Virus record (IMG/VR): IMGVR_UViG_2703718869_000013
Span: 33,127 to 97,126 of that record
Origin: a virus
Taxonomy: Duplodnaviria > Heunggongvirae > Uroviricota > Caudoviricetes
Strand: one strand, 5' to 3'
DNA: 64,000 nucleotides
Shown here: positions 8,889 to 54,208 of the stretch, piece by piece
Numbering within the stretch: the stretch's first letter is position 1
Layout: each line of letters starts with the position of its first letter
Program-made: the position numbers and the translations under genes
The notes under the pieces: model-generated
The model's database searches: none
What the model was told of the DNA's origin: nothing
What the model saw: only the letters and a program-made list of their open reading frames with translations

Positions 8889-9932
8889 TTAACCTATTGC
8901 TACTGGTTTTAACAAACCAGCATCAAGTAGCTTGCGAGTTAACCACTGCTGGCCTTTACCCGTTAATTGGGGCGTCAGCCGTATCTGGTAGCCATTTTCA
9001 TCATCCAGCACCACTTCTTTCACCGTGAAATACCCGGCGTTAATGTACTGCTGGCGCGGTACGTTTTTGCGCGCACCAAAAGCCATGAGAATGCCGTTCT
9101 GGCGCAACCATGAGAAAAGGGCGTTTTGCTTAAGTCCAACGACCTTTGCAAAGTTCCCGATCAGGATTCCATTAGCCGCTGATACCCGGTCGGCAAAATC
9201 GACTTTAGGGGCTGCGGCCACCAGCTGTTGTTCCAACTGCATTTTCTGTTCTGCCAACTCGGCAGCCAGGCGTAGAGCTTCTGGTAATGTTTGGGGGATC
9301 GATGGGGTAGGGGAGTTTGCCTGCTGCAATTCTTCCAGTTTGTCGATCAGCGAACGGCGGACCGCTTTTGACTCGCGCGCGGCGACTCGCAAGGCTTGTT
9401 TGTAGGTCATGGTGATGACCTCAAAAGAGCGCCCAGCCCTTGTGCCATGGGATTTTGCACTTTTTGTGTAAAATTCACCTTCAAGTTCATCGAGTATTTT
9501 TTCGATGAATTTATTGTTTCTAACCTCTGGTTCTCCACATAACTTGCGTGCCTCATTGACCATCTTCAACAATGTTTGGCTGTCGATTGTGTCTCCGGTG
9601 TTGGGGATGACATTCACGGCTGGTGTTGGCGTAGCTGACGTAACAGGTGCTGGTTTCTCAACATTCAAATTTTTACCGGTCACTCTATGTGCCTCCTTTC
9701 TCATTTCTGCTGCCACCGTTGCGTAACGTAGACGTCCTTGTTCAATCAAATAATCCCTGATCTCGGCTATCAGTAGCCTGTTGATCACAGCCTTATCTGT
9801 TCGGGTATAAAAACGCCTGGTTATCATGAAATAGTTGGCAATTGCGCCGGGGATCTCCCGTGTCGGCATACAGGCAGTATGCAGGGCGATTGCTTCGGCT
9901 ATGTCATTACGGGTGACGAGAGGTTTTTTCAT
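8889..9932 (-). CDS. ant: antirepressor Ant (immI-like module A)
   Basis: 347 aa with a conserved ANT C-terminal domain; start overlaps the stop of a 73-aa icd-like ORF (ATGA), indicating translational coupling. Confidence 0.75.
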   Translation of the reverse strand: MKKPLVTRNDIAEAIALHTACMPTREIPGAIANYFMITRRFYTRTDKAVINRLLIAEIRDYLIEQGRLRYATVAAEMRKEAHRVTGKNLNVEKPAPVTSATPTPAVNVIPNTGDTIDSQTLLKMVNEARKLCGEPEVRNNKFIEKILDELEGEFYTKSAKSHGTRAGRSFEVITMTYKQALRVAARESKAVRRSLIDKLEELQQANSPTPSIPQTLPEALRLAAELAEQKMQLEQQLVAAAPKVDFADRVSAANGILIGNFAKVVGLKQNALFSWLRQNGILMAFGARKNVPRQQYINAGYFTVKEVVLDDENGYQIRLTPQLTGKGQQWLTRKLLDAGLLKPVAIG

Positions 9933-10150
9933 AAAACCCCCTGAACGTCGGCAGAGAAGGGGAGGTTCCAGTAACTAAGTGAATTGCGCGAGTTAGTTGA
10001 AAAACGGGCAGTAAAAATGCAGGGGCCATCAGGCAATTGAGAGCGTGCTTCGTCTTCTGTTGCTGCGATAACGAAGTGATAGTGGTGTTTTTTACAGGAA
10101 TAGAAACGCCAGATGAATTCTTGGCGTGCGCAAGGATTGGCATTAACCAT
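9929..10150 (-). CDS. icd: Icd-like small protein (module A)
   Basis: 73 aa (MVNANPCARQEFIWRF...), conserved in four copies, each directly upstream of and overlapping an ant gene. Confidence 0.6.
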   Translation of the reverse strand: MVNANPCARQEFIWRFYSCKKHHYHFVIAATEDEARSQLPDGPCIFTARFSTNSRNSLSYWNLPFSADVQGVL

Positions 10151-10224
10151 AGTTACGGCCTCACTAACAGGTTTAACAACCTGCTACCCGCTGTCAAACA
10201 GGTGGCAGGACGTGACAGGGTTGA

Positions 10225-10300
10225 CAGACTGGCGTTAGTGAAACCAGCAGGCCGAAGCCTCCCCATCACGCCCCACCATAATTCGGGCGTAACGCGGTTT
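10225..10300 (-). ncRNA. c4: c4-like antisense RNA (module A), approximate ends
   Basis: Conserved core (ggtggggcgtgatggggaggcttcggcctgctggttt on the minus strand) followed by heptamer CACTAAC; complementary GTTAGTG occurs upstream (plus 10345-10351) and at the icd RBS (plus 10162-10168). Confidence 0.55.
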
Positions 10301-10397
10301 ACGGACACAAAAATACCGCAATATCGGAAATCTGCGGTTGTCCGCACTAACATTCAGGCTGTCAAACCTGGTCGCAGAATTTGCTACGACGGCAGAA

Positions 10398-10425
10398 CTA
10401 TAAGCCTGAACGATTAAAAGGTCAA
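10398..10425 (-). promoter_or_regulatory. sigma70-like promoter of module A (TTGACC-N16-TATAGT)
   Basis: Reverse complement gives ttgacc then 16 nt then tatagt; the same element is conserved upstream of modules B and C. Confidence 0.5.
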
Positions 10426-10463
10426 TATGATGCGAAAAGATAGCATTCGCGACTTAAAAATAC

Positions 10464-10480
10464 AAATTTATTAGAGCATT
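10464..10480. promoter_or_regulatory. C1-operator-like site between module A and the sim locus
   Basis: aaatttattagagcatt, 16 of 17 match to the operator consensus; adjacent palindrome tttgtgcaataaatgcacaaa. Confidence 0.55.
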
Positions 10481-23576: not shown

Positions 23577-24154
23577 TGACATTCAGAATGAGTGAACAAT
23601 CACGGACCATAAAAATTTATAATCTACTGGCTGGAACCAATGAGTTTATTGGTGAAGGTGATGCATACATTCCACCTCATACAGGTCTGCCTGCAAACAG
23701 TACCGATATTGCCCCGCCAGATATTCCGGCTGGCTTCGTGGCCGTTTTCAACAGTGATGAGGCATCGTGGAATCTCGTTGAAGACCATCGGGGAAAAACC
23801 GTCTATGACGTGGCTTCCGGCGACGCGTTATTTATTTCTGAACTTGGCCCATTACCGGAAAATGTCACCTGGTTATCCCCGGAAGGGGAGTTTCAGAAGT
23901 GGAACGGCACAGCCTGGGTGAAAGATGCAGAAGCAGAAAAACTGTTCCGGATCCGGAAGGCGGAAGAAACAAAAAACAGCCTGATGCAGATGGCCAGTGA
24001 GCATATTGCGCCACTTCAGGATGCCGTAGATTTGGATATTGCGACGGAGGAAGAGGCATCGTTACTGACTGCATGGAAGACATATCGGGTATTGTTGAAT
24101 CGTGTTGATACAACAGTAGCATCGGATGTTGAGTGGCCAGTCGCCCCGCAATAA
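23576..24154 (+). CDS. tfa: tail fibre assembly protein (lambda Tfa-like)
   Basis: 192 aa, [44 protein letters not shown]..., near-identical over most of its length to lambda Tfa as I recall it. Confidence 0.85.
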
Positions 24155-37683: not shown

Positions 37684-37717
37684 ATTGCTCTAATAAATTT
37701 GATTTATTAGAGCAAAT
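37684..37717. promoter_or_regulatory. paired inverted C1-operator-like sites upstream of module B
   Basis: ATTGCTCTAATAAATTT (perfect consensus, 37684-37700) followed by inverted atttattagagcaaat (37702-37717). Confidence 0.7.
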
Positions 37718-37741
37718 AACCTACCATCGAACACGGCTCTA

Positions 37742-37770
37742 TTGATCTCATCGTCGTTCAGGCTTATAGT
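37742..37770 (+). promoter_or_regulatory. sigma70-like promoter of module B (TTGATC-N17-TATAGT)
   Basis: ttgatc 37742-37747, tatagt 37765-37770. Confidence 0.5.
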
Positions 37771-37869
37771 TCCACCGTCGTAGCAAATTCTGCGACCAGG
37801 TTTGACAGCCTGAATACTTGTGCGGACAACCGCAGATTTCCGATATTGCGGTATTTTTGTGTCCGTAAA

Positions 37870-37950
37870 ACCGCGTTACGCCCGAATTATGGTGGGGCGT
37901 GATGGGGAGGCTTCGGCCTGCTGGTTTCACAAGTGCCAGTCTGTCAACCC
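37870..37950 (+). ncRNA. c4: c4-like antisense RNA (module B), approximate ends
   Basis: Core ggtggggcgtgatggggaggcttcggcctgctggtttca followed by a' CACAAGT (37928-37934) and b' CTGTCA; complementary ACTTGTG at 37816-37822 and 38000-38006, and TGACAG upstream and downstream. Confidence 0.6.
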
Positions 37951-38017
37951 TGTCACGTCCTGCCACCTGTTTGACAGCGGGTAGCAGGTTGTTAATTCAA
38001 CTTGTGAGGCCGTAACT

Positions 38018-38239
38018 ATGGTTAATGCCAATCCTTGCGCACGCCAAGAATTCATCTGGCGTTTCTATTCCTGTAAAAAACACCACTATCACTTCGTTAT
38101 CGCAGCAACTGAAGACGAAGCACGCTCTCAATTGCCTGATGGCCCCTGCATTTTTACTGCCCGTTTTTCAACTAACTCGCGCAATTCACTTAGTTACTGG
38201 AGCCTCCCCTTCTCTGCCGACGTTCAGGGGGGTTTATGA
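38018..38239 (+). CDS. icd: Icd-like small protein (module B)
   Basis: 73 aa, stop overlaps the ant start; RBS overlapped by the ACTTGTG target heptamer. Confidence 0.6.
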   Translation: MVNANPCARQEFIWRFYSCKKHHYHFVIAATEDEARSQLPDGPCIFTARFSTNSRNSLSYWSLPFSADVQGGL

Positions 38240-39279
38240 AAAAACCTCTCGTCACCCGTAATGACATAGCCGAAGCGATCGCCCTGCATACTGCCTGTAT
38301 GCCGACACGGGAGATCCCCGGCGCAATTGCCAACTATTTCATGATAACCAGGCGTTTTTATACCCGAACAGATAAGGCTGTGATCAACAGGCTACTGATA
38401 GCCGAGATCAGGGATTATTTGATTGAACAAGGACGTCTACGTTACGCAACGGTGGCAGCAGAAATGAGAAAGGAGGCACATAGAATGACCAGTAATAATT
38501 TGAATGTTAAAAAACCAGCATCTGTTGCTTCAGCTACGCCATCACCAGCTGTGAATGTTATCTCCAACACTGGAGATACAATCGACAGCCAGACGCTGTT
38601 AAAGATGGTTAATGAGGCGCGCAAGCTATGTGGGGAAAATGAGATCCGCAATAACGATTTTCTCAATAGAATTAAGGATGAACTTGATGGGGAATTTTAC
38701 GAAACTTTCGTAAAATCCCATGGCACAAGGGCCGGGCGCTCTTTTGAGGTCATAACCATGACCTACAAACAAGCCCTGCGAGTCGCCGCGCGCGAGTCAA
38801 AAGCGGTCCGCCGTTCGCTGATCGACAAACTGGAAGAATTGCAGCAGGCAAACTCCCCTACCCCATCGATCCCCCAAACATTACCAGAAGCCCTACGTCT
38901 GGCTGCCGAGTTAGCAGAACAGAAAATGCAGTTGGAACAACAGCTGGTGGCCGCAGCCCCTAAAGTCGATTTTGCTGACCGGGTATCAGCGGCTAATGGA
39001 ATCCTGATCGGGAACTTTGCAAAGGTCGTTGGACTTAAGCAAAACGCCCTTTTCTCATGGTTGCGCCAGAACGGCATTCTCATGGCTTTTGGTGCGCGCA
39101 AAAACGTACCGCGCCAGCAATACATCAACGCCGGGTATTTCACGGTGAAAGAAGTGGTGCTGGATGATGAAGATGGTTACCAGATACGGCTGACGCCCCA
39201 ATTAACGGGTAAAGGCCAGCAGTGGTTGACGCGTAAACTGCTCGATGCAGGTTTATTAAAGCCTGTAGCGGCTGAGTGA
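38236..39279 (+). CDS. ant: antirepressor Ant (module B)
   Basis: 347 aa, about 90 percent identical to the module A Ant by eye; conserved ANT C-terminal domain. Confidence 0.75.
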   Translation: MKKPLVTRNDIAEAIALHTACMPTREIPGAIANYFMITRRFYTRTDKAVINRLLIAEIRDYLIEQGRLRYATVAAEMRKEAHRMTSNNLNVKKPASVASATPSPAVNVISNTGDTIDSQTLLKMVNEARKLCGENEIRNNDFLNRIKDELDGEFYETFVKSHGTRAGRSFEVITMTYKQALRVAARESKAVRRSLIDKLEELQQANSPTPSIPQTLPEALRLAAELAEQKMQLEQQLVAAAPKVDFADRVSAANGILIGNFAKVVGLKQNALFSWLRQNGILMAFGARKNVPRQQYINAGYFTVKEVVLDDEDGYQIRLTPQLTGKGQQWLTRKLLDAGLLKPVAAE

Positions 39280-45309: not shown

Positions 45310-45326
45310 ATTGCTCTAATAAATTT
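45310..45326. promoter_or_regulatory. C1-operator-like site upstream of module C
   Basis: ATTGCTCTAATAAATTT, perfect match to the consensus, followed by a degenerate inverted copy. Confidence 0.7.
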
Positions 45327-45496
45327 GATTTATTGGGGCAAATAAACTACTATTGGACGCCAGACTATTGATCTTCCTGTTGTTCAGGCTTATAGTTCCT
45401 ACGCCGTAGCAAATTCTGCGACCGGGTTTAGCAGCCTGAATGTACATGCGGACAACCGCAGATTTCCGATATTGCGGTATTTTTATGTCCGTAAAA

Positions 45497-45577
45497 CCGC
45501 GTTACGCCCGAATTATGGTGGGGCGTGATGGGGAGGCTTCGGCCTGCTGGTTTCATGTACGCCAGTCTGCTAACCCC
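45497..45577 (+). ncRNA. c4: c4-like antisense RNA (module C), approximate ends
   Basis: Same core as module B; a' CATGTAC (45554-45560) with targets GTACATG at 45442-45448 and 45626-45632; b elements TAGCAG / CTGCTA instead of TGACAG / CTGTCA. Confidence 0.6.
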
Positions 45578-45643
45578 GTCACGTCCTGCCACCCGTTTAG
45601 CAGCGGGTAGCAGGTTGTTAAACCTGTACATGAGGCCGTAACT

Positions 45644-45865
45644 ATGGTTAATGCCAATCCTTGCGCACGCCCTGAATTTATCTGGCGCTTTTACTCCTGC
45701 CAGAAACGCCACTATCACTTCGTTATTGCACCGACAGAAGATGAGGCACGTTCTCAGCTTCCGGATGCTCCCTGCATTTTCTCCGCACGCTTTTCTACTG
45801 ACTCGCGCAATTCTCTCAGTTACTGGTGCCTCCCTGTTAACGCTTCTGTTCAGGAGGGGCTATGA
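45644..45865 (+). CDS. icd: Icd-like small protein (module C)
   Basis: 73 aa paralog; stop overlaps the ant start. Confidence 0.6.
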   Translation: MVNANPCARPEFIWRFYSCQKRHYHFVIAPTEDEARSQLPDAPCIFSARFSTDSRNSLSYWCLPVNASVQEGL

Positions 45866-46974
45866 GAACGTCATTAGTCACCCGTGAAGAGATGATCGAG
45901 GCAATTGAACAGCACACAATCTGTATCAGCACCAGGGATATACCAGGCGTTATTGCCAACTACTTCATGATCACCAAACAACTTTACCGGAGAAAGGACA
46001 AGAACGCGGTTCACCGTATCCTGTTGTCTGATATCCGCGAATACCTGCTCGAACAGGGTCATCTGAATTACGCAACCGTCGCAGCCGAAGCACGCAAGGA
46101 GGCACACAGAATGAAAGCAACTAACGTTAAATCAGAAAAAATTTATGCACCTTCAGTTCAGGAATCGGAACTGGTGGTTGTTCAGAATCAGCCGGATGAA
46201 ATTCCCGTTCTGGAATGGCAGGGAGTACGTGTCGTAACAACCGAAACTCTTGCTAGAGGGTATGGGGTCGATGAAGCCAATATTCGCAACAATTTGTCTC
46301 GCAACCTTGACCGCTTTGAAGAAGGTAAGCATTACTTTCTTCTAACTGGTTTAAAATTAAGAGAATTTAAGAACAGAGTAACCGGAAGTTACTCTGTTGG
46401 TAAGAACGCCAGAAGCCTTACACTCTGGACAGAGCGCGGCGCTGCACGCATGTCTAAGATCGTGGACACAAATGAAGCATGGGCATTCTTTGAAAAACTG
46501 GAAGACAGCTACTTCCGGCAAAAAGAACAGCAACCGGTCGCAATCCCTCAGACGCTTCCCGAAGCTCTGCGCCTGGCTGCCGAGCTGGCTGAACAAAAGC
46601 AACTTCTGGAACAGAAAGCCCACCAGCTAAATCAGCAGCTGGTGGCCGCCGCCCCTAAAGTCGATTTTGCCGACCGGGTATCAGGGGCCAAGGGGATCCT
46701 GATTGGAAATTTTGCAAAGGTTGTTGGGCTTAAGCAAAACGCGTTGTTTGCCTGGTTACGGGGGAACGGCATCCTGATAGCGTCCGGTGGACGTAAAAAT
46801 GTGCCGTTCCAGCAATACATCAACGCCGGGTATTTCACGGTGAAAGAAGTGGTGCTGGATGATGAAGATGGTTACCAGATACGGCTGACGCCCCAATTAA
46901 CGGGTAAAGGCCAGCAGTGGTTGACGCGTAAACTGCTCGAAGCTGGCTTGTTAAAACCGGTGGCGGCTGAATGA
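45862..46974 (+). CDS. ant: antirepressor Ant, type 2 (module C)
   Basis: 370 aa; different central domain from modules A/B (AntA/ORF6N-like, PVLEWQGVRVVTTETLARGYG) plus the shared ANT C-terminus. Confidence 0.75.
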   Translation: MRTSLVTREEMIEAIEQHTICISTRDIPGVIANYFMITKQLYRRKDKNAVHRILLSDIREYLLEQGHLNYATVAAEARKEAHRMKATNVKSEKIYAPSVQESELVVVQNQPDEIPVLEWQGVRVVTTETLARGYGVDEANIRNNLSRNLDRFEEGKHYFLLTGLKLREFKNRVTGSYSVGKNARSLTLWTERGAARMSKIVDTNEAWAFFEKLEDSYFRQKEQQPVAIPQTLPEALRLAAELAEQKQLLEQKAHQLNQQLVAAAPKVDFADRVSGAKGILIGNFAKVVGLKQNALFAWLRGNGILIASGGRKNVPFQQYINAGYFTVKEVVLDDEDGYQIRLTPQLTGKGQQWLTRKLLEAGLLKPVAAE

Positions 46975-51048: not shown

Positions 51049-52167
51049 TTATTCAGCCGCCACCGGTTTTAACAAGCCAGCATCGAGCAGTTTACGCGTC
51101 AACCACTGCTGGCCTTTACCCGTTAATTGAGGCGTCAACCGTATCTGGTAGCCATCTTCATCATCCAGCACCACTTCTTTCACCGTGAAATACCCGGCGT
51201 TGATGTACTGCTGGAACGGCACATTTTTACGTCCACCGGACGCTATCAGGATGCCGTTCTCCCGTAACCAGACAAACAGCGCGTTTTGCTTAAGTCCAAC
51301 AACCTTTGCAAAATTCCCAATCAGGATCCCTTTAGCTACTGATACCCGGTCGGCAAAATCGACTTTAGGAGCGGCGGCCACCAGCTGCTGATTTAGCTGG
51401 TGGGCTTTCTGTTCCAGAAGTTGCTTTTGTTCAGCCAGTTCGGCAGCCAGGCGTAGGACTTCAGGAAGCGTCTGGGGGATTGCGATCGGTTGCTGTTCTT
51501 TTTGTCGGAAGTAGCTGTCTTCCAGTTTTTCAAAGAATGCCCATGCCTGATCGGTTTCGAGCATTTTAGCGTGGCGGGCTGCGCCGCGTTCTGTCCAGAG
51601 GGTGAGTGAGCGAACATTGCGAGCAATTTTTACAGAGTAGTTTAAAGCTACTCTGTGCTTCAACTCGCGCAATGATTCTCCTTCAACTTTGAAAAAGTGC
51701 TTCCCTTCAACAAAGCGTACTTTGTTCTCATGATGATTTTGGCGAATACGGATTGTTTCTGTCCCATACCCTCTCGCAAGAGTCTCGGTTGTCACTACAC
51801 GCACTCCCTGCCATTCCAGAACGGGAATTTCATCAGACTGATTCTGAACAACCACCAGCTCCGATTCCTGAACTGAAGGTGCATGAATTTTTTCTAATTT
51901 AACGTTATTTGCTTTCATTCTGTGTGCCTCCTTGCGTGCTTCGGCTGCGACGGTTGCGTAATTCAGATGACCCTGTTCGAGCAGGTATTCGCGGATATCA
52001 GACAACAGGATACGGTGAACCGCGTTCTTGTCCTTTCTCCGGTAAAGTTGTTTGGTGATCATGAAGTAGTTGGCAATAACGCCAGGTATATCCCTGGTGC
52101 TGATACAGATTGTGTGCTGTTCAATTGCCTCGATCATCTCTTCACGGGTGACTAATGACGTTCTCAT
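51049..52167 (-). CDS. ant: antirepressor Ant, type 2 (module D)
   Basis: 372 aa, close paralog of the module C Ant. Confidence 0.75.
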   Translation of the reverse strand: MRTSLVTREEMIEAIEQHTICISTRDIPGVIANYFMITKQLYRRKDKNAVHRILLSDIREYLLEQGHLNYATVAAEARKEAHRMKANNVKLEKIHAPSVQESELVVVQNQSDEIPVLEWQGVRVVTTETLARGYGTETIRIRQNHHENKVRFVEGKHFFKVEGESLRELKHRVALNYSVKIARNVRSLTLWTERGAARHAKMLETDQAWAFFEKLEDSYFRQKEQQPIAIPQTLPEVLRLAAELAEQKQLLEQKAHQLNQQLVAAAPKVDFADRVSVAKGILIGNFAKVVGLKQNALFVWLRENGILIASGGRKNVPFQQYINAGYFTVKEVVLDDEDGYQIRLTPQLTGKGQQWLTRKLLDAGLLKPVAAE

Positions 52168-52385
52168 AGTCCCTCCTGAGCAGAAGCGTTAACAGGGAGG
52201 CACCAGTAACTGAGAGAATTGCGTGAATCAGTGGAAAAACGGGCAGAGAAAATACATGGGGCGTCAGGAAGCTGAGAGCGAGCCTCATCTTCTGTTGGTG
52301 CAATAACGAAGTGATAGTGACGTTTTTGGCAGGAGTAAAAGCGCCAGATAAATTCAGGATGAGTTGGGGTAGGGATAGTAGCCAT
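52164..52385 (-). CDS. icd: Icd-like small protein (module D)
   Basis: 73 aa from MATIPTPTHPEFIWRF...; RBS AAGGAGG; the listed 187-aa ORF (to 52727) is an upstream read-through artefact. Confidence 0.55.
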   Translation of the reverse strand: MATIPTPTHPEFIWRFYSCQKRHYHFVIAPTEDEARSQLPDAPCIFSARFSTDSRNSLSYWCLPVNASAQEGL

Positions 52386-52469
52386 ATTGGCAGCCTCCTT
52401 AGACGTTGGTATGTAACCACCGCAGAAGAGACCAATCTTGCTGGCGGTGGACTGTACGGAGTTGGCCTT

Positions 52470-52530
52470 ACTGGCGTCCAAGGTAACCAGCCTACCCGAA
52501 GGTAGCCCCATACAGCCCACCATTGTAGAG
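52470..52530 (-). ncRNA. c4: divergent c4-like antisense RNA (module D), approximate ends
   Basis: Minus-strand core ggtgggctgtatggggctaccttcgggtaggctggtta; loop CTTGGACG can pair with CGTCTAAG at the icd RBS (one G-U wobble); GTCTAAG also upstream (plus 52581-52587). Confidence 0.45.
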
Positions 52531-52703
52531 GTGTGCGTGTACGCCGATACAAAAAAAGACGCGAGCGGCGTCTGTATCGCCTTAGACTTAAGCGGGAGGC
52601 CAATCCCGGCACCCGTTTTAATGAGGTGCCTGATAAGCATAAACCGAAAATGCCTCAAGGCGCAAGAGGTCAGGCTCAATGTAACATCGGTAGTTAAAAA
52701 ACA

Positions 52704-52720
52704 CAATTTATTAGAGCAAA
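52704..52720. promoter_or_regulatory. C1-operator-like site upstream of module D
   Basis: caatttattagagcaaa, 15 of 17 match to the operator consensus. Confidence 0.55.
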
Positions 52721-52723
52721 TAT

Positions 52724-54208
52724 TCATTCATTAAGCCATGCCAGAGCTTCATCAACCTGCGCTTCGTCTTCGACGCTAAGCACTTCATCCTGGGGAACAT
52801 AATCCGCCAGCATAGCGAAACAATATGTATCCCAATGGTCTGGTGAGTGCAGGTTGAGTTTTTTCTTCATATCCTCCTTACTCATCACTTTCCATTGACC
52901 TGCGGAGTTAATCCCTACAGGGATTTTCGACGCTTCCTCAATAGTTTCATTACCCTTATCCAGTCTCATACGACCAGATTTTACGGCCTCTGCGGCTTGA
53001 ACGTTGGCATAAGCACGTTTATCAAAGTACAGGCTCTTATCTTCACGGCTATGCATCTTTTTACCCCAGCGTATACGCTGTACGGTAATACCATAATACT
53101 CGTACATCAGATCCGCCGTTGCTTTACCCAGGCCATCGCCGTCTATCGCTATGGTGATATTTGGGAATCGCTCAGGATTACATTCTGCGAAAATTTTGGC
53201 GGCAAGCTGCGTTTCTGTAACGTCTGTGTATTCCAGCATTCGATAGTTGATTACACGGCGTTTATTTCGCTGGCCGGACACCATCATGATATTAATAACG
53301 GACTTATCTCGTCCTGTGCCACCAGCAACGTCAACACATGCAACCCAGCCCCATCCTTTGGCAATCTTGACTTTCCGCCGCGTTGCACGTTCAACCTCAT
53401 CACGTCCAAGAAGGAAGCCATCCTGTGATTTAGGAAATAGGCCGCGTACCTTAATCATGTACATAGGGTTATCACGCCCGCCGTACTCCGCCAGCTTCAT
53501 TTTGATAAATGCTGGCGTTACCAGCGGTGATTCCTCACTGTTAAGCGTGATCGCCGTATAAACGCCATCAGGGTTACCAGGCCGCTTGGCCAGTTTATGG
53601 TGAGTATCGTAGAAATAGCCGCTTGGGCGTGTAGGCTGTGACAGCAATAAGATGCGGTTATCCTGTCCGGTAAGAGCACCGGTGATGATACCGAAAGCTC
53701 TATCACTGACACCGGAGGCTTCATCGATAATATACAGAAGATGATCTGCGTGTTCACCTGCGAGAGCTTCTTCACTTCCCAGACGAAAGCCCTTCGGTAC
53801 TACAGTCCATACACCTTTACCAGTAACTTCATAAAAAGCGGTTTCTGTCAGAACAAAATAATCCGCAAGCCATGGAAAACGGCTGGTGGCCGTAGCCCAG
53901 TTTATCTTGATGTACTTGAATATACCGGTCATTACCTGCTGAATTTTGTTCGCAACGATAATGGCACGGGCACCGGGATACATGATTATGAACAACATGA
54001 TCATGATAGAAGTCATGTCTGATTTCCCGGTACCGTGACCAGACGAAACAGATGTCTTGCTACCCTGTTCCTGCACAGACTCAATAATCAGATCCTGCTG
54101 CCAGGTAGGTGTTTTGCCGAACAAAACATCAGCGGCCGCAATCCAGTCATAACGATATAGCGCCACCAGCTCGCGCCAACGTGGATCCGTTACGCAACTT
54201 CTGGCCAT
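52724..54208 (-). CDS. pacB: terminase large subunit (PacB-like)
   Basis: 494 aa; Walker A SGHGTGKS and Walker B-like IIDEAS; directly downstream of the pacA-like gene. Confidence 0.8.

What the first reader, a model, noticed from the sequence alone, without database searches (positions are those of the whole stretch)
52398..52721. Module D carries a diverged c4-like RNA whose pairing includes a G-U wobble, plus an internal terminator-like hairpin
Module D has a different core (ggtgggctgtatggggctaccttcgggtaggctggtta on the minus strand). Its loop CTTGGACG can pair with CGTCTAAG at the icd RBS with one G-U pair, and GTCTAAG recurs upstream (plus 52581-52587). A hairpin plus T-run (plus 52551-52575, read on the minus strand) lies between the upstream target and the c4 core. 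This looks like an older or independently acquired specificity.
Basis: seen in the sequence. Interest (0 to 1): 0.6.

Follow-up and report, generated by a model that had tools for sequence, protein, structure and literature searches.

The report
IsrK–C4 antisense switch guarding an antirepressor
This stretch of a P1-like phage-plasmid holds a known type of two-RNA immunity switch, an IsrK-like leader RNA plus a C4 antisense RNA with its own pairing specificity, that most likely keeps an extra antirepressor operon silent; it is a new example of a described system, not a new system.

Summary
On the minus strand, between pacB and c1 of a P1-like E. coli phage-plasmid, lies a C4 antisense RNA (52527..52440, Rfam 75.9 bits). 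Its loop CCUUGGACG pairs with CGUCUAAGG at the icd ribosome-binding site and with GUCUAAGG upstream, each with one G·U. The 'internal terminator hairpin' is the terminator of an IsrK-family leader RNA (52629..52552, 60.8 bits), which carries the upstream target.

It also missed a C1 operator with P1 immI-like promoters upstream.

In 22 relatives with about 20 loop specificities, loop and both targets covary (7 of 8 and 9 of 9 pairs changed on both sides; 0 of 500 shuffles reach the score).

The element is the P4-type seqA/IsrK–CI/C4 cassette, also found in Gifsy-1 and Stx phages. Here it drives a P1-type icd–antirepressor pair. The a1..b2 segment is swapped relative to RCS47 at the same locus and to this plasmid's module B, so 'independently acquired specificity' holds and 'older' does not.

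It is a new member of a known kind. One oddity is unexplained: the icd reading frame stays open across the whole RNA cassette.

The parts
52704..52720 (-). C1 repressor operator (TTTGCTCTAATAAATTG), the counterpart of P1 Oc4/Op51
   Evidence: It has 2 mismatches to the 17-bp consensus. There are 13 such sites in the window against 0.39 expected. It aligns with the annotated Oc4 of P1 and with the operators of the other three modules.
52678..52706 (-). P51a(P2c4)-like promoter: -35 TTGTGT (overlaps the operator end), 17-nt spacer, -10 TACATT
   Evidence: Placed only by alignment to the promoter annotated in the P1 reference record. It is a weak consensus match. Inferred.
52636..52665 (-). P51b(P1c4)/PisrK-like promoter: -35 TTGCGC, 17-nt spacer, -10 TATGCT, predicted start at G52629
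   Evidence: It aligns with TTGACC/TATAGT of P1 and of modules A-C. The -10 to +1 spacing is the same as in Gifsy-1 isrK. Homology to Stx phages begins at 52629/52628.
52551..52629 (-). IsrK-family leader RNA (the P4 seqA / P1 a1b1 leader): two hairpins, a single-stranded linker, and an intrinsic terminator
   Evidence: Rfam RF01394 scores 60.8 bits against a gathering score of 50. The c4-a1b1 model matches only sub-threshold, at 20.5 bits. Hairpins 1 and 2 are 100% paired in 22 relatives, and 3 pairs changed on both sides.
52598..52604 (-). a1 site AUUGGCC, in the loop of IsrK hairpin 2; pairs with a'
   Evidence: The helix is 100% paired in 22 sequences. This window supplies the one compensatory change, GC to CG.
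52580..52587 (-). b1 site GUCUAAGG, in the IsrK linker; pairs with the C4 loop b' (8 bp, one G·U)
   Evidence: 7 of 8 pairs changed on both sides. The covariation score is 0.373 against 0.110 for shuffles, and 0 of 500 shuffles reach it. The cognate site sits at the same position in 26 loop classes.
52551..52573 (-). Intrinsic terminator of the leader: AGACGC-CGCUC-GCGUCU followed by a U-run
   Evidence: Found by the terminator scan. It matches the terminator part of the isrK model. All relatives have a hairpin plus T-run at this position.
52440..52527 (-). C4 antisense RNA (the P4 CI RNA homologue). By homology with P1 the mature form is probably about 52521..52449.
   Evidence: Rfam RF01695 scores 75.9 bits against a gathering score of 45. 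The MFE is -41.6 kcal/mol, z = -3.5. The closing stem is 99.7% paired, and all 5 pairs of hairpin 1 changed on both sides.
52475..52483 (-). b' specificity loop CCUUGGACG, in C4 hairpin 2
   Evidence: The near-identical scaffold in L128 carries a different loop with matching b1 and b2.
52461..52467 (-). a' site GGCCAAC, in the single-stranded junction of C4
   Evidence: Among the four modules of the window there are three a types, each changed at all three sites.
52417..52450 (-). Hairpin CCACCGC/GCGGUGG that presents a2 (AUUGGUC, 52436..52430) in its loop. Its 5' arm overlaps the 3' strand of the C4 closing stem.
   Evidence: 99.4% paired in 22 sequences, and 3 pairs changed on both sides. 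The a'-a2 helix is 100% paired.
52394..52405 (-). b2 site CGUCUAAGG, overlapping the Shine-Dalgarno sequence AAGGAGG of icd
   Evidence: 9 of 9 pairs changed on both sides. The covariation score is 0.347 against 0.113 for shuffles, and 0 of 500 shuffles reach it.
52164..52385 (-). icd-like gene (73 aa)
   Evidence: NCBIfam NF033153 scores 49.8 bits against a cut-off of 25. It is 98% identical to the Icd of module B from residue 10 onward.
51049..52167 (-). Antirepressor (372 aa, ORF6N and KilAC domains). Its start overlaps the icd stop (ATGA).
   Evidence: Pfam PF03374 scores 107.8 bits and PF10543 scores 69.8 bits. It is 88% identical to the Ant of module B.
52164..52727 (-). Conceptual 187-aa reading frame (an 'Ash family' match fused in frame to icd) running through the operator, promoters, IsrK, terminator and C4. 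Probably not a gene.
   Evidence: Pfam PF10554 scores 44.5 bits on residues 35-126, which span exactly the RNA cassette. Stop-codon depletion is seen in relatives. There is no codon periodicity.

Best explanation
Module D is a complete immunity-type RNA switch of the IsrK/C4 kind (seqA/CI in phage P4). It sits in front of an icd–antirepressor pair, between pacB and c1 of a P1-like phage-plasmid.

Proposed mechanism:
1. Transcription starts at P1 immI-like promoters next to a C1 operator.
2. Most transcripts stop at the leader terminator and give a roughly 78-nt IsrK-like RNA. This RNA displays two sites, a1 in a hairpin loop and b1 in a single-stranded linker.
3. Read-through transcripts contain the C4 RNA. 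By analogy with P1 and P4, C4 is cut out as a stable RNA of about 75 nt.
4. The C4 loop b' (CCUUGGACG) and junction a' (GGCCAAC) pair with b2 (on the icd Shine-Dalgarno sequence) and a2 (in a hairpin loop just downstream of C4). This blocks icd translation. Through the ATGA overlap and polarity it also blocks antirepressor synthesis.
5. The same C4 surfaces pair with a1 and b1 on the leader. In P4 this pairing promotes termination at the leader terminator. In Gifsy-1, free IsrK supplied in trans relieves repression. The terminated leader therefore most likely acts as a decoy for C4, and the leader-to-C4 ratio sets the threshold for antirepressor release.
6. D's a and b sequences differ from those of the plasmid's other three C4 modules, so each module is controlled separately (heteroimmunity).

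Shown here: family membership, folds, three-way covariation, orthogonality of predicted duplexes, and the mosaic origin.
Inferred from homologues: processing, direction of regulation, and the decoy and termination roles.
For: - Rfam C4 scores 75.9 bits and isrK 60.8 bits, both above gathering score and directly adjacent.
- A terminator is present, and the C4 fold has z = -3.5.
- In 26 loop classes from 66 IMG/VR relatives, every loop has a cognate complement at fixed positions in the leader and at the SD. Mean scores are 8.5 and 9.1, against 5.0 and 5.5 for non-cognate combinations.
- On a 22-sequence alignment, b1-b' has 7 of 8 pairs changed on both sides and b'-b2 has 9 of 9. The a helices are 100% paired. 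Slid controls fall to 25-47% paired.
- The intramolecular helices are 90.6% paired, with 16 pairs changed on both sides.
- Predicted duplexes among the four window modules are strongest for the cognate partner in every row.
- All four modules, and annotated P1 immI (Oc4, P51a/b, a1, b1, C4, a2, b2, icd, ant1), align end to end with D.
- The Gifsy-1 isrK locus has the same parts (isrK, C4 at 69 bits, and c4-a1b1 overlapping isrK). Its published compensatory mutants G28A/C162U and G31A/C159U fall in a1 and a'. IsrK in trans raises anrP translation more than 100-fold (PMC4825925).
- P4 itself scores C4 74.9 bits and isrK 60.8 bits.
- Barquist et al. 2013 already describe the 'IsrK-C4 immunity system' (PMC3632133).
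- The cassette is at least 99% conserved in 118 complete E. coli records.
Against: - There is no transcript, processing or reporter data for this element. The start site, read-through fraction and mature C4 ends are all inferred.
- D's promoter hexamers are weak (TTGCGC/TATGCT), and the simple promoter scan did not list them.
- The c4-a1b1 model does not reach its threshold on D's leader (20.5 against 46.7 bits).
- Single-sequence duplex statistics are only modest.
- The role of a1/b1 is described differently in P4 (termination) and in Gifsy-1 (activation through a structural switch in the mRNA). The unifying decoy reading is my inference.
- An open reading frame in the icd frame covers the cassette and is depleted of stop codons in relatives. 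The model does not explain this.
Confidence: 0.78

Rival explanations
1. Cis-only leader switch. The 'C4' element is not released as a trans-acting RNA here. Instead it is part of an mRNA leader that folds into an inactive structure, with the IsrK segment paired to the C4 segment and the RBS sequestered. The short IsrK RNA opens this structure in trans, as proposed for Gifsy-1.
For: The Gifsy-1 model has structures A and B, native-gel evidence, and a requirement for translation starting at the AUGs inside the C4 body ('orf45'). D keeps those AUGs (52523, 52511) in frame with icd. A conserved alternative hairpin overlaps the 3' strand of the C4 closing stem.
Against: A stable processed species (STnc1160) exists in Gifsy-1. 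P1 C4 is annotated as a separate RNA, and P4 CI RNA is known to me as a discrete trans-acting RNA. The C4 closing stem is 99.7% paired with compensatory changes, which fits a free, folded RNA. Specificity differences between four modules in one plasmid only make sense for trans-acting regulators.
Confidence: 0.15
2. The region encodes a protein: an 'Ash family' protein, or a long Ash–Icd isoform of up to 187 aa that starts at ATG 52727, which overlaps the pacB stop. On this view the RNA-like features are secondary.
For: The icd frame is open from 52727 to 52164. Pfam Phage_ASH scores 44.5 bits, and PGAP annotates 'ash family protein' here and in relatives. In 30 Icd-type relatives none of 50 unique variable-segment variants has a stop in this frame, against 13 and 13 in the other two frames.
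Against: - Variation shows no codon periodicity (0.486/0.484/0.474).
- The frame would run through a C1 operator, two promoters and an intrinsic terminator.
- Changes are compensatory for RNA helices and for three-way intermolecular pairing.
- L072, 99% identical to D, has an extra T in the T-run, which is a frameshift.
- The RCS47 allele has two in-frame stops. Non-Icd relatives have stops in the loop. P1-type modules have a stop 36 nt before icd.
- The Pfam family also matches the obsolete P4 'cI protein' ORF that overlaps the CI RNA gene.
Confidence: 0.06
3. Inert relic. The module is a recombination remnant that is no longer expressed or needed, carried along with the P1-like backbone.
For: The promoter hexamers are weak. 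The plasmid already has three other icd–ant modules.
Against: Every part is intact: operator, leader, terminator, C4, both target pairs, SD, and the icd and ant ORFs with their ATGA coupling. At least 99% identity is kept in 118 complete records. Allelic cassettes at the same locus keep all three sites matched.
Confidence: 0.07

Closest known systems
Phage P1/P7 immI operon (Oc4/Op51, P51a/b, a1 b1, c4, a2 b2, icd, ant1/2)
   Same: D aligns end to end with the annotated P1 region. It has the same order of parts, a C1 operator, b2 on the icd RBS, a 73-aa Icd and a KilAC antirepressor with ATGA coupling. In P1, C4 blocks icd translation and hence ant expression (annotation; Citron & Schuster 1990/1992 and Heinrich 1995, from my own knowledge).
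   Different: The RNA segment is only about 50% identical to the P1-type modules. The leader is of the IsrK type, with a strong canonical terminator. The a and b sequences differ. The location is pacB–c1, not the immI locus. The icd frame is open upstream, whereas P1-type modules have a stop 36 nt upstream.
Gifsy-1 isrK–orf45/STnc1160–anrP locus (Hershko-Shalev et al. 2016, PMC4825925)
   Same: It has the same IsrK plus C4 pair followed by an antirepressor. The a1-a' pairing was proven there by compensatory mutations. IsrK terminates at its own terminator with partial read-through, and acts in trans.
   Different: Gifsy-1 has no icd. The ORF through the C4 body ('orf45') ends at the anrP start, whereas in D it runs in frame into icd. 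The promoter has no C1 operator. The b specificity differs (UCGGUGAU).
Satellite phage P4 immunity region (seqA–CI RNA–seqC)
   Same: P4 scores C4 74.9 bits and isrK 60.8 bits with the same spacing. Barquist 2013 equates seqA with IsrK and CI with C4. From my recollection of Briani et al. 2000, the P4 leader terminator t1 needs CI RNA and seqA for efficient termination.
   Different: The P4 cassette controls replication genes (the alpha operon) by premature termination, not an icd–ant pair. It has different a and b sequences and no C1 operator.
isrK–C4 cassettes of Stx-converting phages (for example TL-2011c and F039)
   Same: They are the closest phage relatives of the RNA part, at 79% identity starting exactly at the IsrK +1 position. 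In record LC710660 both RNAs are already annotated.
   Different: They are followed by a Rha-type regulator, not icd–ant. Their sites differ: a' GUAGCAA and b' CCUUGAUUG.
The pacB–c1 'ant' insertion of phage RCS47 and of pTZ20_1P (Venturini et al. 2019, PMC6906374)
   Same: Same locus. The flanks are at least 97% identical, including the operator, promoters and icd–ant.
   Different: The a1..b2 segment (about 52621-52404) is replaced. RCS47 has a' GUCUCAA and b' CCUUUGAC. The papers describe only the ORFs, not the RNAs.

Membership tests
C4 antisense RNA (Rfam RF01695; P1 c4 / P4 CI RNA) | Covariance-model score at or above the gathering score (45 bits) | tested here: met
   75.9 bits over the full-length model 1-87, at 52527..52440.
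C4 antisense RNA (Rfam RF01695; P1 c4 / P4 CI RNA) | Long closing stem enclosing two hairpins, supported by compensatory changes | tested here: met
   The closing stem is 99.7% paired, with 5 pairs changed on both sides. All 5 pairs of hairpin 1 changed on both sides. The MFE z-score is -3.5.
C4 antisense RNA (Rfam RF01695; P1 c4 / P4 CI RNA) | Loop (b') and junction (a') complementary to a site pair on the RBS of the downstream gene (a2, b2) and to a second pair upstream (a1, b1) | tested here: met
   Covariation exceeds all 500 shuffles and all slid controls.
C4 antisense RNA (Rfam RF01695; P1 c4 / P4 CI RNA) | Stable ~77-nt RNA processed from a longer transcript (RNase P), acting in trans as a repressor | not testable with these tools
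   No expression data are available. Inferred from P1 (the misc_RNA annotation) and from the literature.
IsrK (Rfam RF01394; P4 seqA leader) | Covariance-model score at or above the gathering score (50 bits) | tested here: met
   60.8 bits over model 1-77, at 52629..52552.
IsrK (Rfam RF01394; P4 seqA leader) | Ends in a Rho-independent terminator and lies directly upstream of a C4-type RNA | tested here: met
   The terminator is at 52573..52557 with a T-run. C4 starts 25 nt downstream.
IsrK (Rfam RF01394; P4 seqA leader) | Hfq binding, and trans-activation of the downstream antirepressor | not testable with these tools
   Known only for Gifsy-1 (PMC4825925).
c4-a1b1 motif (Rfam RF03163) | Covariance-model score at or above the gathering score (46.7 bits) | tested here: not met
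   20.5 bits, E = 0.007, at 52642..52589. The two-hairpin architecture is the same. Modules A and C and Gifsy-1 (48.1 bits) pass, and P4 falls just short (44.1 bits).
P1-type immI operon | C1 operator at the promoter | tested here: met
   15 of 17 matches, aligned with P1 Oc4.
P1-type immI operon | Two sigma-70 promoters (P51a controlled by C1, and P51b) | tested here: inconclusive
   Hexamers align with the P1 annotation but are weak. The simple scan did not call them.
P1-type immI operon | icd followed by a translationally coupled KilAC antirepressor | tested here: met
   NF033153 scores 49.8 bits. PF03374 scores 107.8 bits. The ATGA overlap is at 52167..52164.
Ash protein family (Pfam PF10554) | HMM score at or above the cut-off (26 bits) | tested here: met
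   44.5 bits on the conceptual ORF.
Ash protein family (Pfam PF10554) | A real translated protein with coding-type conservation | tested here: inconclusive
   There is no codon periodicity, and some alleles carry frameshifts or stops. Against that, stop codons are depleted in Icd-type relatives. The family also matches the obsolete P4 'cI' ORF that lies over the CI RNA.

The most novel reading that the evidence does not exclude
In Icd-type IsrK–C4 cassettes, including this one, the icd reading frame is kept free of stop codons through the leader RNA, its terminator and the C4 RNA. The same DNA may therefore serve both as two regulatory RNAs and as the coding sequence of an N-terminally extended 'Ash–Icd' product. 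Alternatively, ribosomes starting at the C4-internal AUGs may have to translate through into icd. In this plasmid the frame even starts at an ATG overlapping the pacB stop. Late read-through transcripts could thus express icd–ant while bypassing C4 control.
Probability: 0.12. Interest if true: 0.7.

Novelty: new member of a known kind. Interest (0 to 1): 0.35.

Why it matters
The finding shows that the extra antirepressor gene noted between pacB and c1 of many P1-like phage-plasmids is not a bare gene. It comes with a complete, C1-linked RNA immunity switch of the P4/Gifsy-1 type.

At this one locus, alleles differ specifically in the roughly 200-nt a1..b2 specificity segment. This gives a natural set of orthogonal antisense/target triplets: four in this one plasmid and about 26 loop classes in relatives. 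They are useful for studying heteroimmunity and cross-talk between co-resident phages and satellites.

The finding also flags the 'ash family protein' annotations (Pfam PF10554 and PGAP) as probably conceptual translations of these RNA genes.

It does not reveal a new mechanism.

Tried and rejected
- A first regex parser for C4 hairpin 2 failed because of its lazy quantifier. It was replaced by explicit enumeration.
- A MAFFT alignment of all 95 anchored IMG/VR segments was too gappy to use directly. A 22-sequence subset was used instead.
- In that subset MAFFT misaligns the terminator helix, which counts as only 53% paired although every sequence shows a hairpin plus T-run.
- The classic P1 papers (PMC523184, PMC312442, PMC196329) and the supplement of Weinberg 2017 are not held. 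P1 and P4 mechanistic statements therefore rest on the P1 GenBank annotation, on papers that cite them, and on my own knowledge.
- The codon-periodicity test was weak as a discriminator, because the icd control itself shows little periodicity.
- The Pas sRNA preprint and the O111 plasmid preprint contained nothing relevant.
- I looked for an ancestral loop with A in place of the wobble G (CCTTAGACG) in the fetched loci and found none.
- I considered that the count of GTCTAAGG alone proves the pairing, and rejected this because it is not significant.
- I considered that D is a diverged copy of the plasmid's own c4, and rejected this on the identity profiles and the Stx/P4-type affinities.
Full report
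**1. What is at the coordinates**

- the 'core' at 52521..52484;
- the loop CCTTGGACG at 52483..52475;
- CGTCTAAGG at 52405..52397, overlapping the Shine-Dalgarno sequence AAGGAGG;
- GTCTAAGG again at 52587..52580;
- a hairpin at 52573..52557 followed by a T-run, which the terminator scan also lists.

The pairing of the loop with both sites includes one G·U, at the same loop base (G52479).

On this one sequence the statistics are modest. The 8-mer occurs only at these two places in 64 kb, but two hits are not unusual. Duplex energies beat 97-99% of shuffles.

**2. Identity of the parts**

A scan of the whole window against Rfam gives four C4 antisense RNA hits. The one in this finding is the best, at 75.9 bits against a gathering score of 45.

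Directly upstream lies an isrK hit (52629..52552, 60.8 bits against 50). The 'internal terminator-like hairpin' is therefore the terminator of an IsrK-family leader RNA. The upstream copy of the target (b1) lies in that RNA's single-stranded linker.

The c4-a1b1 model, which describes the equivalent leader of P1-type modules, matches the same two hairpins only below threshold (20.5 bits).

Downstream are two genes:
- a 73-aa Icd-like protein (NF033153, 49.8 bits);
- a 372-aa ORF6N plus KilAC antirepressor, overlapping the icd stop by ATGA.

Upstream, at 52720..52704, is a C1 operator with 15 of 17 consensus matches. The window has 13 such sites against 0.39 expected.

**3. Context**

The window is a P1-like E. 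coli phage-plasmid. The 2-kb region is 99% identical to many plasmids of about 92-100 kb and to phage vB_EcoM-673R5.

The module sits between pacB and c1. That insertion has been noted at the gene level for RCS47 and pTZ20_1P (PMC6906374).

The four C4 modules of the window align end to end with each other and with the richly annotated immI region of P1. The shared parts are Oc4/Op51, P51a, P51b, a1, b1, C4, a2, b2, icd and ant1.

By that alignment D has:
- a P51a-like promoter whose -35 overlaps the operator;
- a P51b-like promoter (TTGCGC, 17-nt spacer, TATGCT) with its predicted start at G52629.

These promoter assignments are inferred. The hexamers are weak, and the simple scan did not call them.

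**4.

As in P1, there are two interaction surfaces. Besides b' (the loop), the single-stranded junction a' (GGCCAAC, 52467..52461) is complementary to:
- a1 (AUUGGCC, 52604..52598, in the loop of IsrK hairpin 2);
- a2 (AUUGGUC, 52436..52430).

The a2 site is itself presented in the loop of a conserved hairpin, CCACCGC/GCGGUGG (52450..52417). That hairpin is 99.4% paired in relatives, with three pairs changed on both sides. Its 5' arm overlaps the 3' strand of the C4 closing stem.

**5. Comparative test of the pairings**

An exact-match scan of viral contigs with the conserved IsrK hairpin-2 sequence returned 119 loci. These gave 95 unique anchored segments, of which 66 parse as IsrK plus C4, with 26 different hairpin-2 loops.

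In every class the loop has a complement at the same position in the leader and on the Shine-Dalgarno region of the downstream gene. Cognate scores average 8.5 and 9.1, against 5.0 and 5.5 for non-cognate combinations.

Results on a 22-sequence alignment that includes Gifsy-1:

| Pairing | Pairs changed on both sides | Covariation score | Shuffled mean | Shuffles reaching it | Slid controls |
|---|---|---|---|---|---|
| b1-b' | 7 of 8 | 0.373 | 0.110 | 0 of 500 | ≤0.085 |
| b'-b2 | 9 of 9 | 0.347 | 0.113 | 0 of 500 | ≤0.141 |

- Both a helices are 100% paired.
- The window sequence supplies their only compensated change, made at all three sites: a1 ..GGCC, a' GGCC.., a2 ..GGUC, against GGCG/CGCC/GGCG in the others.
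- The intramolecular helices of IsrK and C4 are 90.6% paired, with 16 pairs changed on both sides.
- G·U pairs are common: 13 of 26 classes have one in b1 and 17 of 26 in b2. The wobble is unremarkable.

A chromosomal relative (L128) has the same scaffold and a type as D but a different loop (CCUUGAUUG), with matching b1 and b2. This is a clean example of a coordinated three-site specificity change.

**6. Origin**

Identity profiles show three things:
- Against the Stx-converting phages, similarity (79%) starts exactly at the IsrK +1 position and runs to the icd start. In those phages the cassette precedes a Rha-type regulator.
- Against module B of the same plasmid, D is about 50% identical down to about 52370. 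It is then 80-100% identical through icd and ant.
- Against RCS47, which carries a module at the same locus, D is at least 97% identical everywhere except about 52621-52404, that is from a1 to b2. There RCS47 has a' GUCUCAA and b' CCUUUGAC.

The specificity segment is therefore a swappable cassette inside otherwise conserved flanks. 'Independently acquired' is right. 'Older' is not supported.

The D cassette is at least 99% conserved in 118 complete E. coli records, mostly plasmids.

**7. Relation to characterised systems**

- **Gifsy-1.** The isrK locus has isrK, a C4 hit (69 bits) and a c4-a1b1 hit overlapping isrK. The published 'orf45'/STnc1160 is the C4 body. The published compensatory mutants G28A/C162U and G31A/C159U lie in a1 and a'. 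In that system IsrK terminates at its own terminator with partial read-through. IsrK supplied in trans raises anrP transcription 8-fold and translation more than 100-fold.
- **P4.** It scores C4 74.9 bits and isrK 60.8 bits. Barquist et al. 2013 already call this the 'IsrK-C4 immunity system', equating seqA with IsrK and CI RNA with C4, and they note similar systems in P1, P7 and N15 (PMC3632133).
- **Existing annotation.** One Stx phage record already annotates both RNAs.

The kind is therefore known. What is specific here is its fusion to P1-type control DNA and to icd–ant at the pacB–c1 locus, and its D-specific a and b sequences.

**8. Most likely mechanism**

See the best explanation for the full statement. 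In brief:
- C4-D blocks the icd RBS through b'-b2 and a'-a2, and so blocks coupled antirepressor synthesis (P1 precedent).
- C4 pairing with a1/b1 on the nascent leader favours termination at the leader terminator (P4 t1 precedent, from my recollection of Briani et al. 2000).
- The terminated IsrK-like leader acts as a decoy for C4 (my reading of the Gifsy-1 trans-activation data).
- Predicted duplexes among the four modules are strongest for the cognate partner in each row. This fits separate control of four antirepressor modules in one plasmid.

None of this is shown experimentally for this element.

**9. Rival: protein coding**

*For:*
- The icd frame is open for 187 codons, from an ATG overlapping the pacB stop.
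- Pfam Phage_ASH matches residues 35-126, exactly the RNA cassette (44.5 bits).
- PGAP annotates 'ash family protein' there.
- In 30 Icd-type relatives, none of 50 unique variable-segment variants has a stop in that frame, against 13 and 13 in the other two frames.

*Against:*
- There is no codon periodicity.
- One near-identical copy has a frameshift.
- RCS47 has in-frame stops, non-Icd relatives have stops in the loop, and P1-type modules have a stop 36 nt upstream of icd.
- The frame crosses an operator, promoters and a terminator.
- The Pfam family also matches the obsolete P4 'cI protein' ORF that lies over the CI RNA gene.

I regard the family as most likely a conceptual translation of RNA genes. 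The stop-codon depletion remains unexplained. It may reflect a need for ribosomes that start at the C4-internal AUGs (Gifsy-1 'orf45') to read on into icd.

**10. Verdict**

The element is a new member of a known kind, of moderate-to-low interest, with one unexplained side observation.

Noticed in passing
window 8889-10480 (-), 37684-39279 (+), 45310-46974 (+), 51049-52720 (-): The window carries four complete modules (C1 operator, leader, C4, icd, KilAC antirepressor) with four b specificities and three a specificities, each changed at all three sites. The loop of module A (CACUAAC) equals that of P1 itself. Predicted duplexes are strongest for cognate partners.
   Followed up: partly
window 52350-52625 (-); L127 8171-8584 (-); L128 1137-2165: Pfam PF10554 'Phage_ASH' and PGAP 'ash family protein' calls coincide with the IsrK–C4 RNA cassette. 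They also match the obsolete P4 'cI protein' ORF that lies over the CI RNA gene. The family looks like a conceptual translation of RNA genes.
   Followed up: partly
window 52164-52727 (-) and 30 IMG/VR relatives (for example L005, L035, L056): The icd reading frame has no stop codon through the leader RNA, terminator and C4. In relatives, 0 of 50 unique variable-segment variants carry a stop in this frame, against 13 and 13 in the other two frames. Yet there is no codon periodicity, and RCS47 and the non-Icd relatives do carry stops. Unexplained.
   Followed up: partly
L015, L043, L059, L082, L024, L057, L079, L084 (about 39 nt between the IsrK terminator and C4): A subset of relatives has a roughly 39-nt insertion with a TTG...TATAAT promoter-like sequence between the leader terminator and C4. 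This could give C4 a promoter of its own.
   Followed up: no
window 52417-52450 (-): A conserved hairpin presents a2 in its loop and competes with the C4 closing stem for the CCACC strand. It mirrors the way IsrK hairpin 2 presents a1, and it suggests a folding switch that depends on processing.
   Followed up: partly
window 51597-51773 (-): The middle of the antirepressor gene, between the ORF6N and KilAC domains, is a second variable patch. It is 37-73% identical to RCS47 and 47-60% to module B, inside otherwise 90-100% identical genes.
   Followed up: no
window 37950-37990 and the aligned positions in modules A, B and P1 (alignment columns about 160-195): The P1-type leaders also have, at the position of the IsrK terminator, a 6-bp hairpin (ACCGCA...TGCGGT) followed by ATTTTTG. 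A weaker leader terminator may therefore be a general feature of immI leaders. It is not annotated in the P1 record.
   Followed up: no
window 23919-24117 (+): A strong Rfam hit to IS009 (192 bits), unrelated to the finding.
   Followed up: no
window, 13 sites (for example 8794, 36722, 42205, 47067, 49507, 49590, 50054, 56010): There are thirteen C1-operator-like sites in 64 kb against 0.39 expected. This fits a P1-type C1 regulon spread over the plasmid.
   Followed up: no
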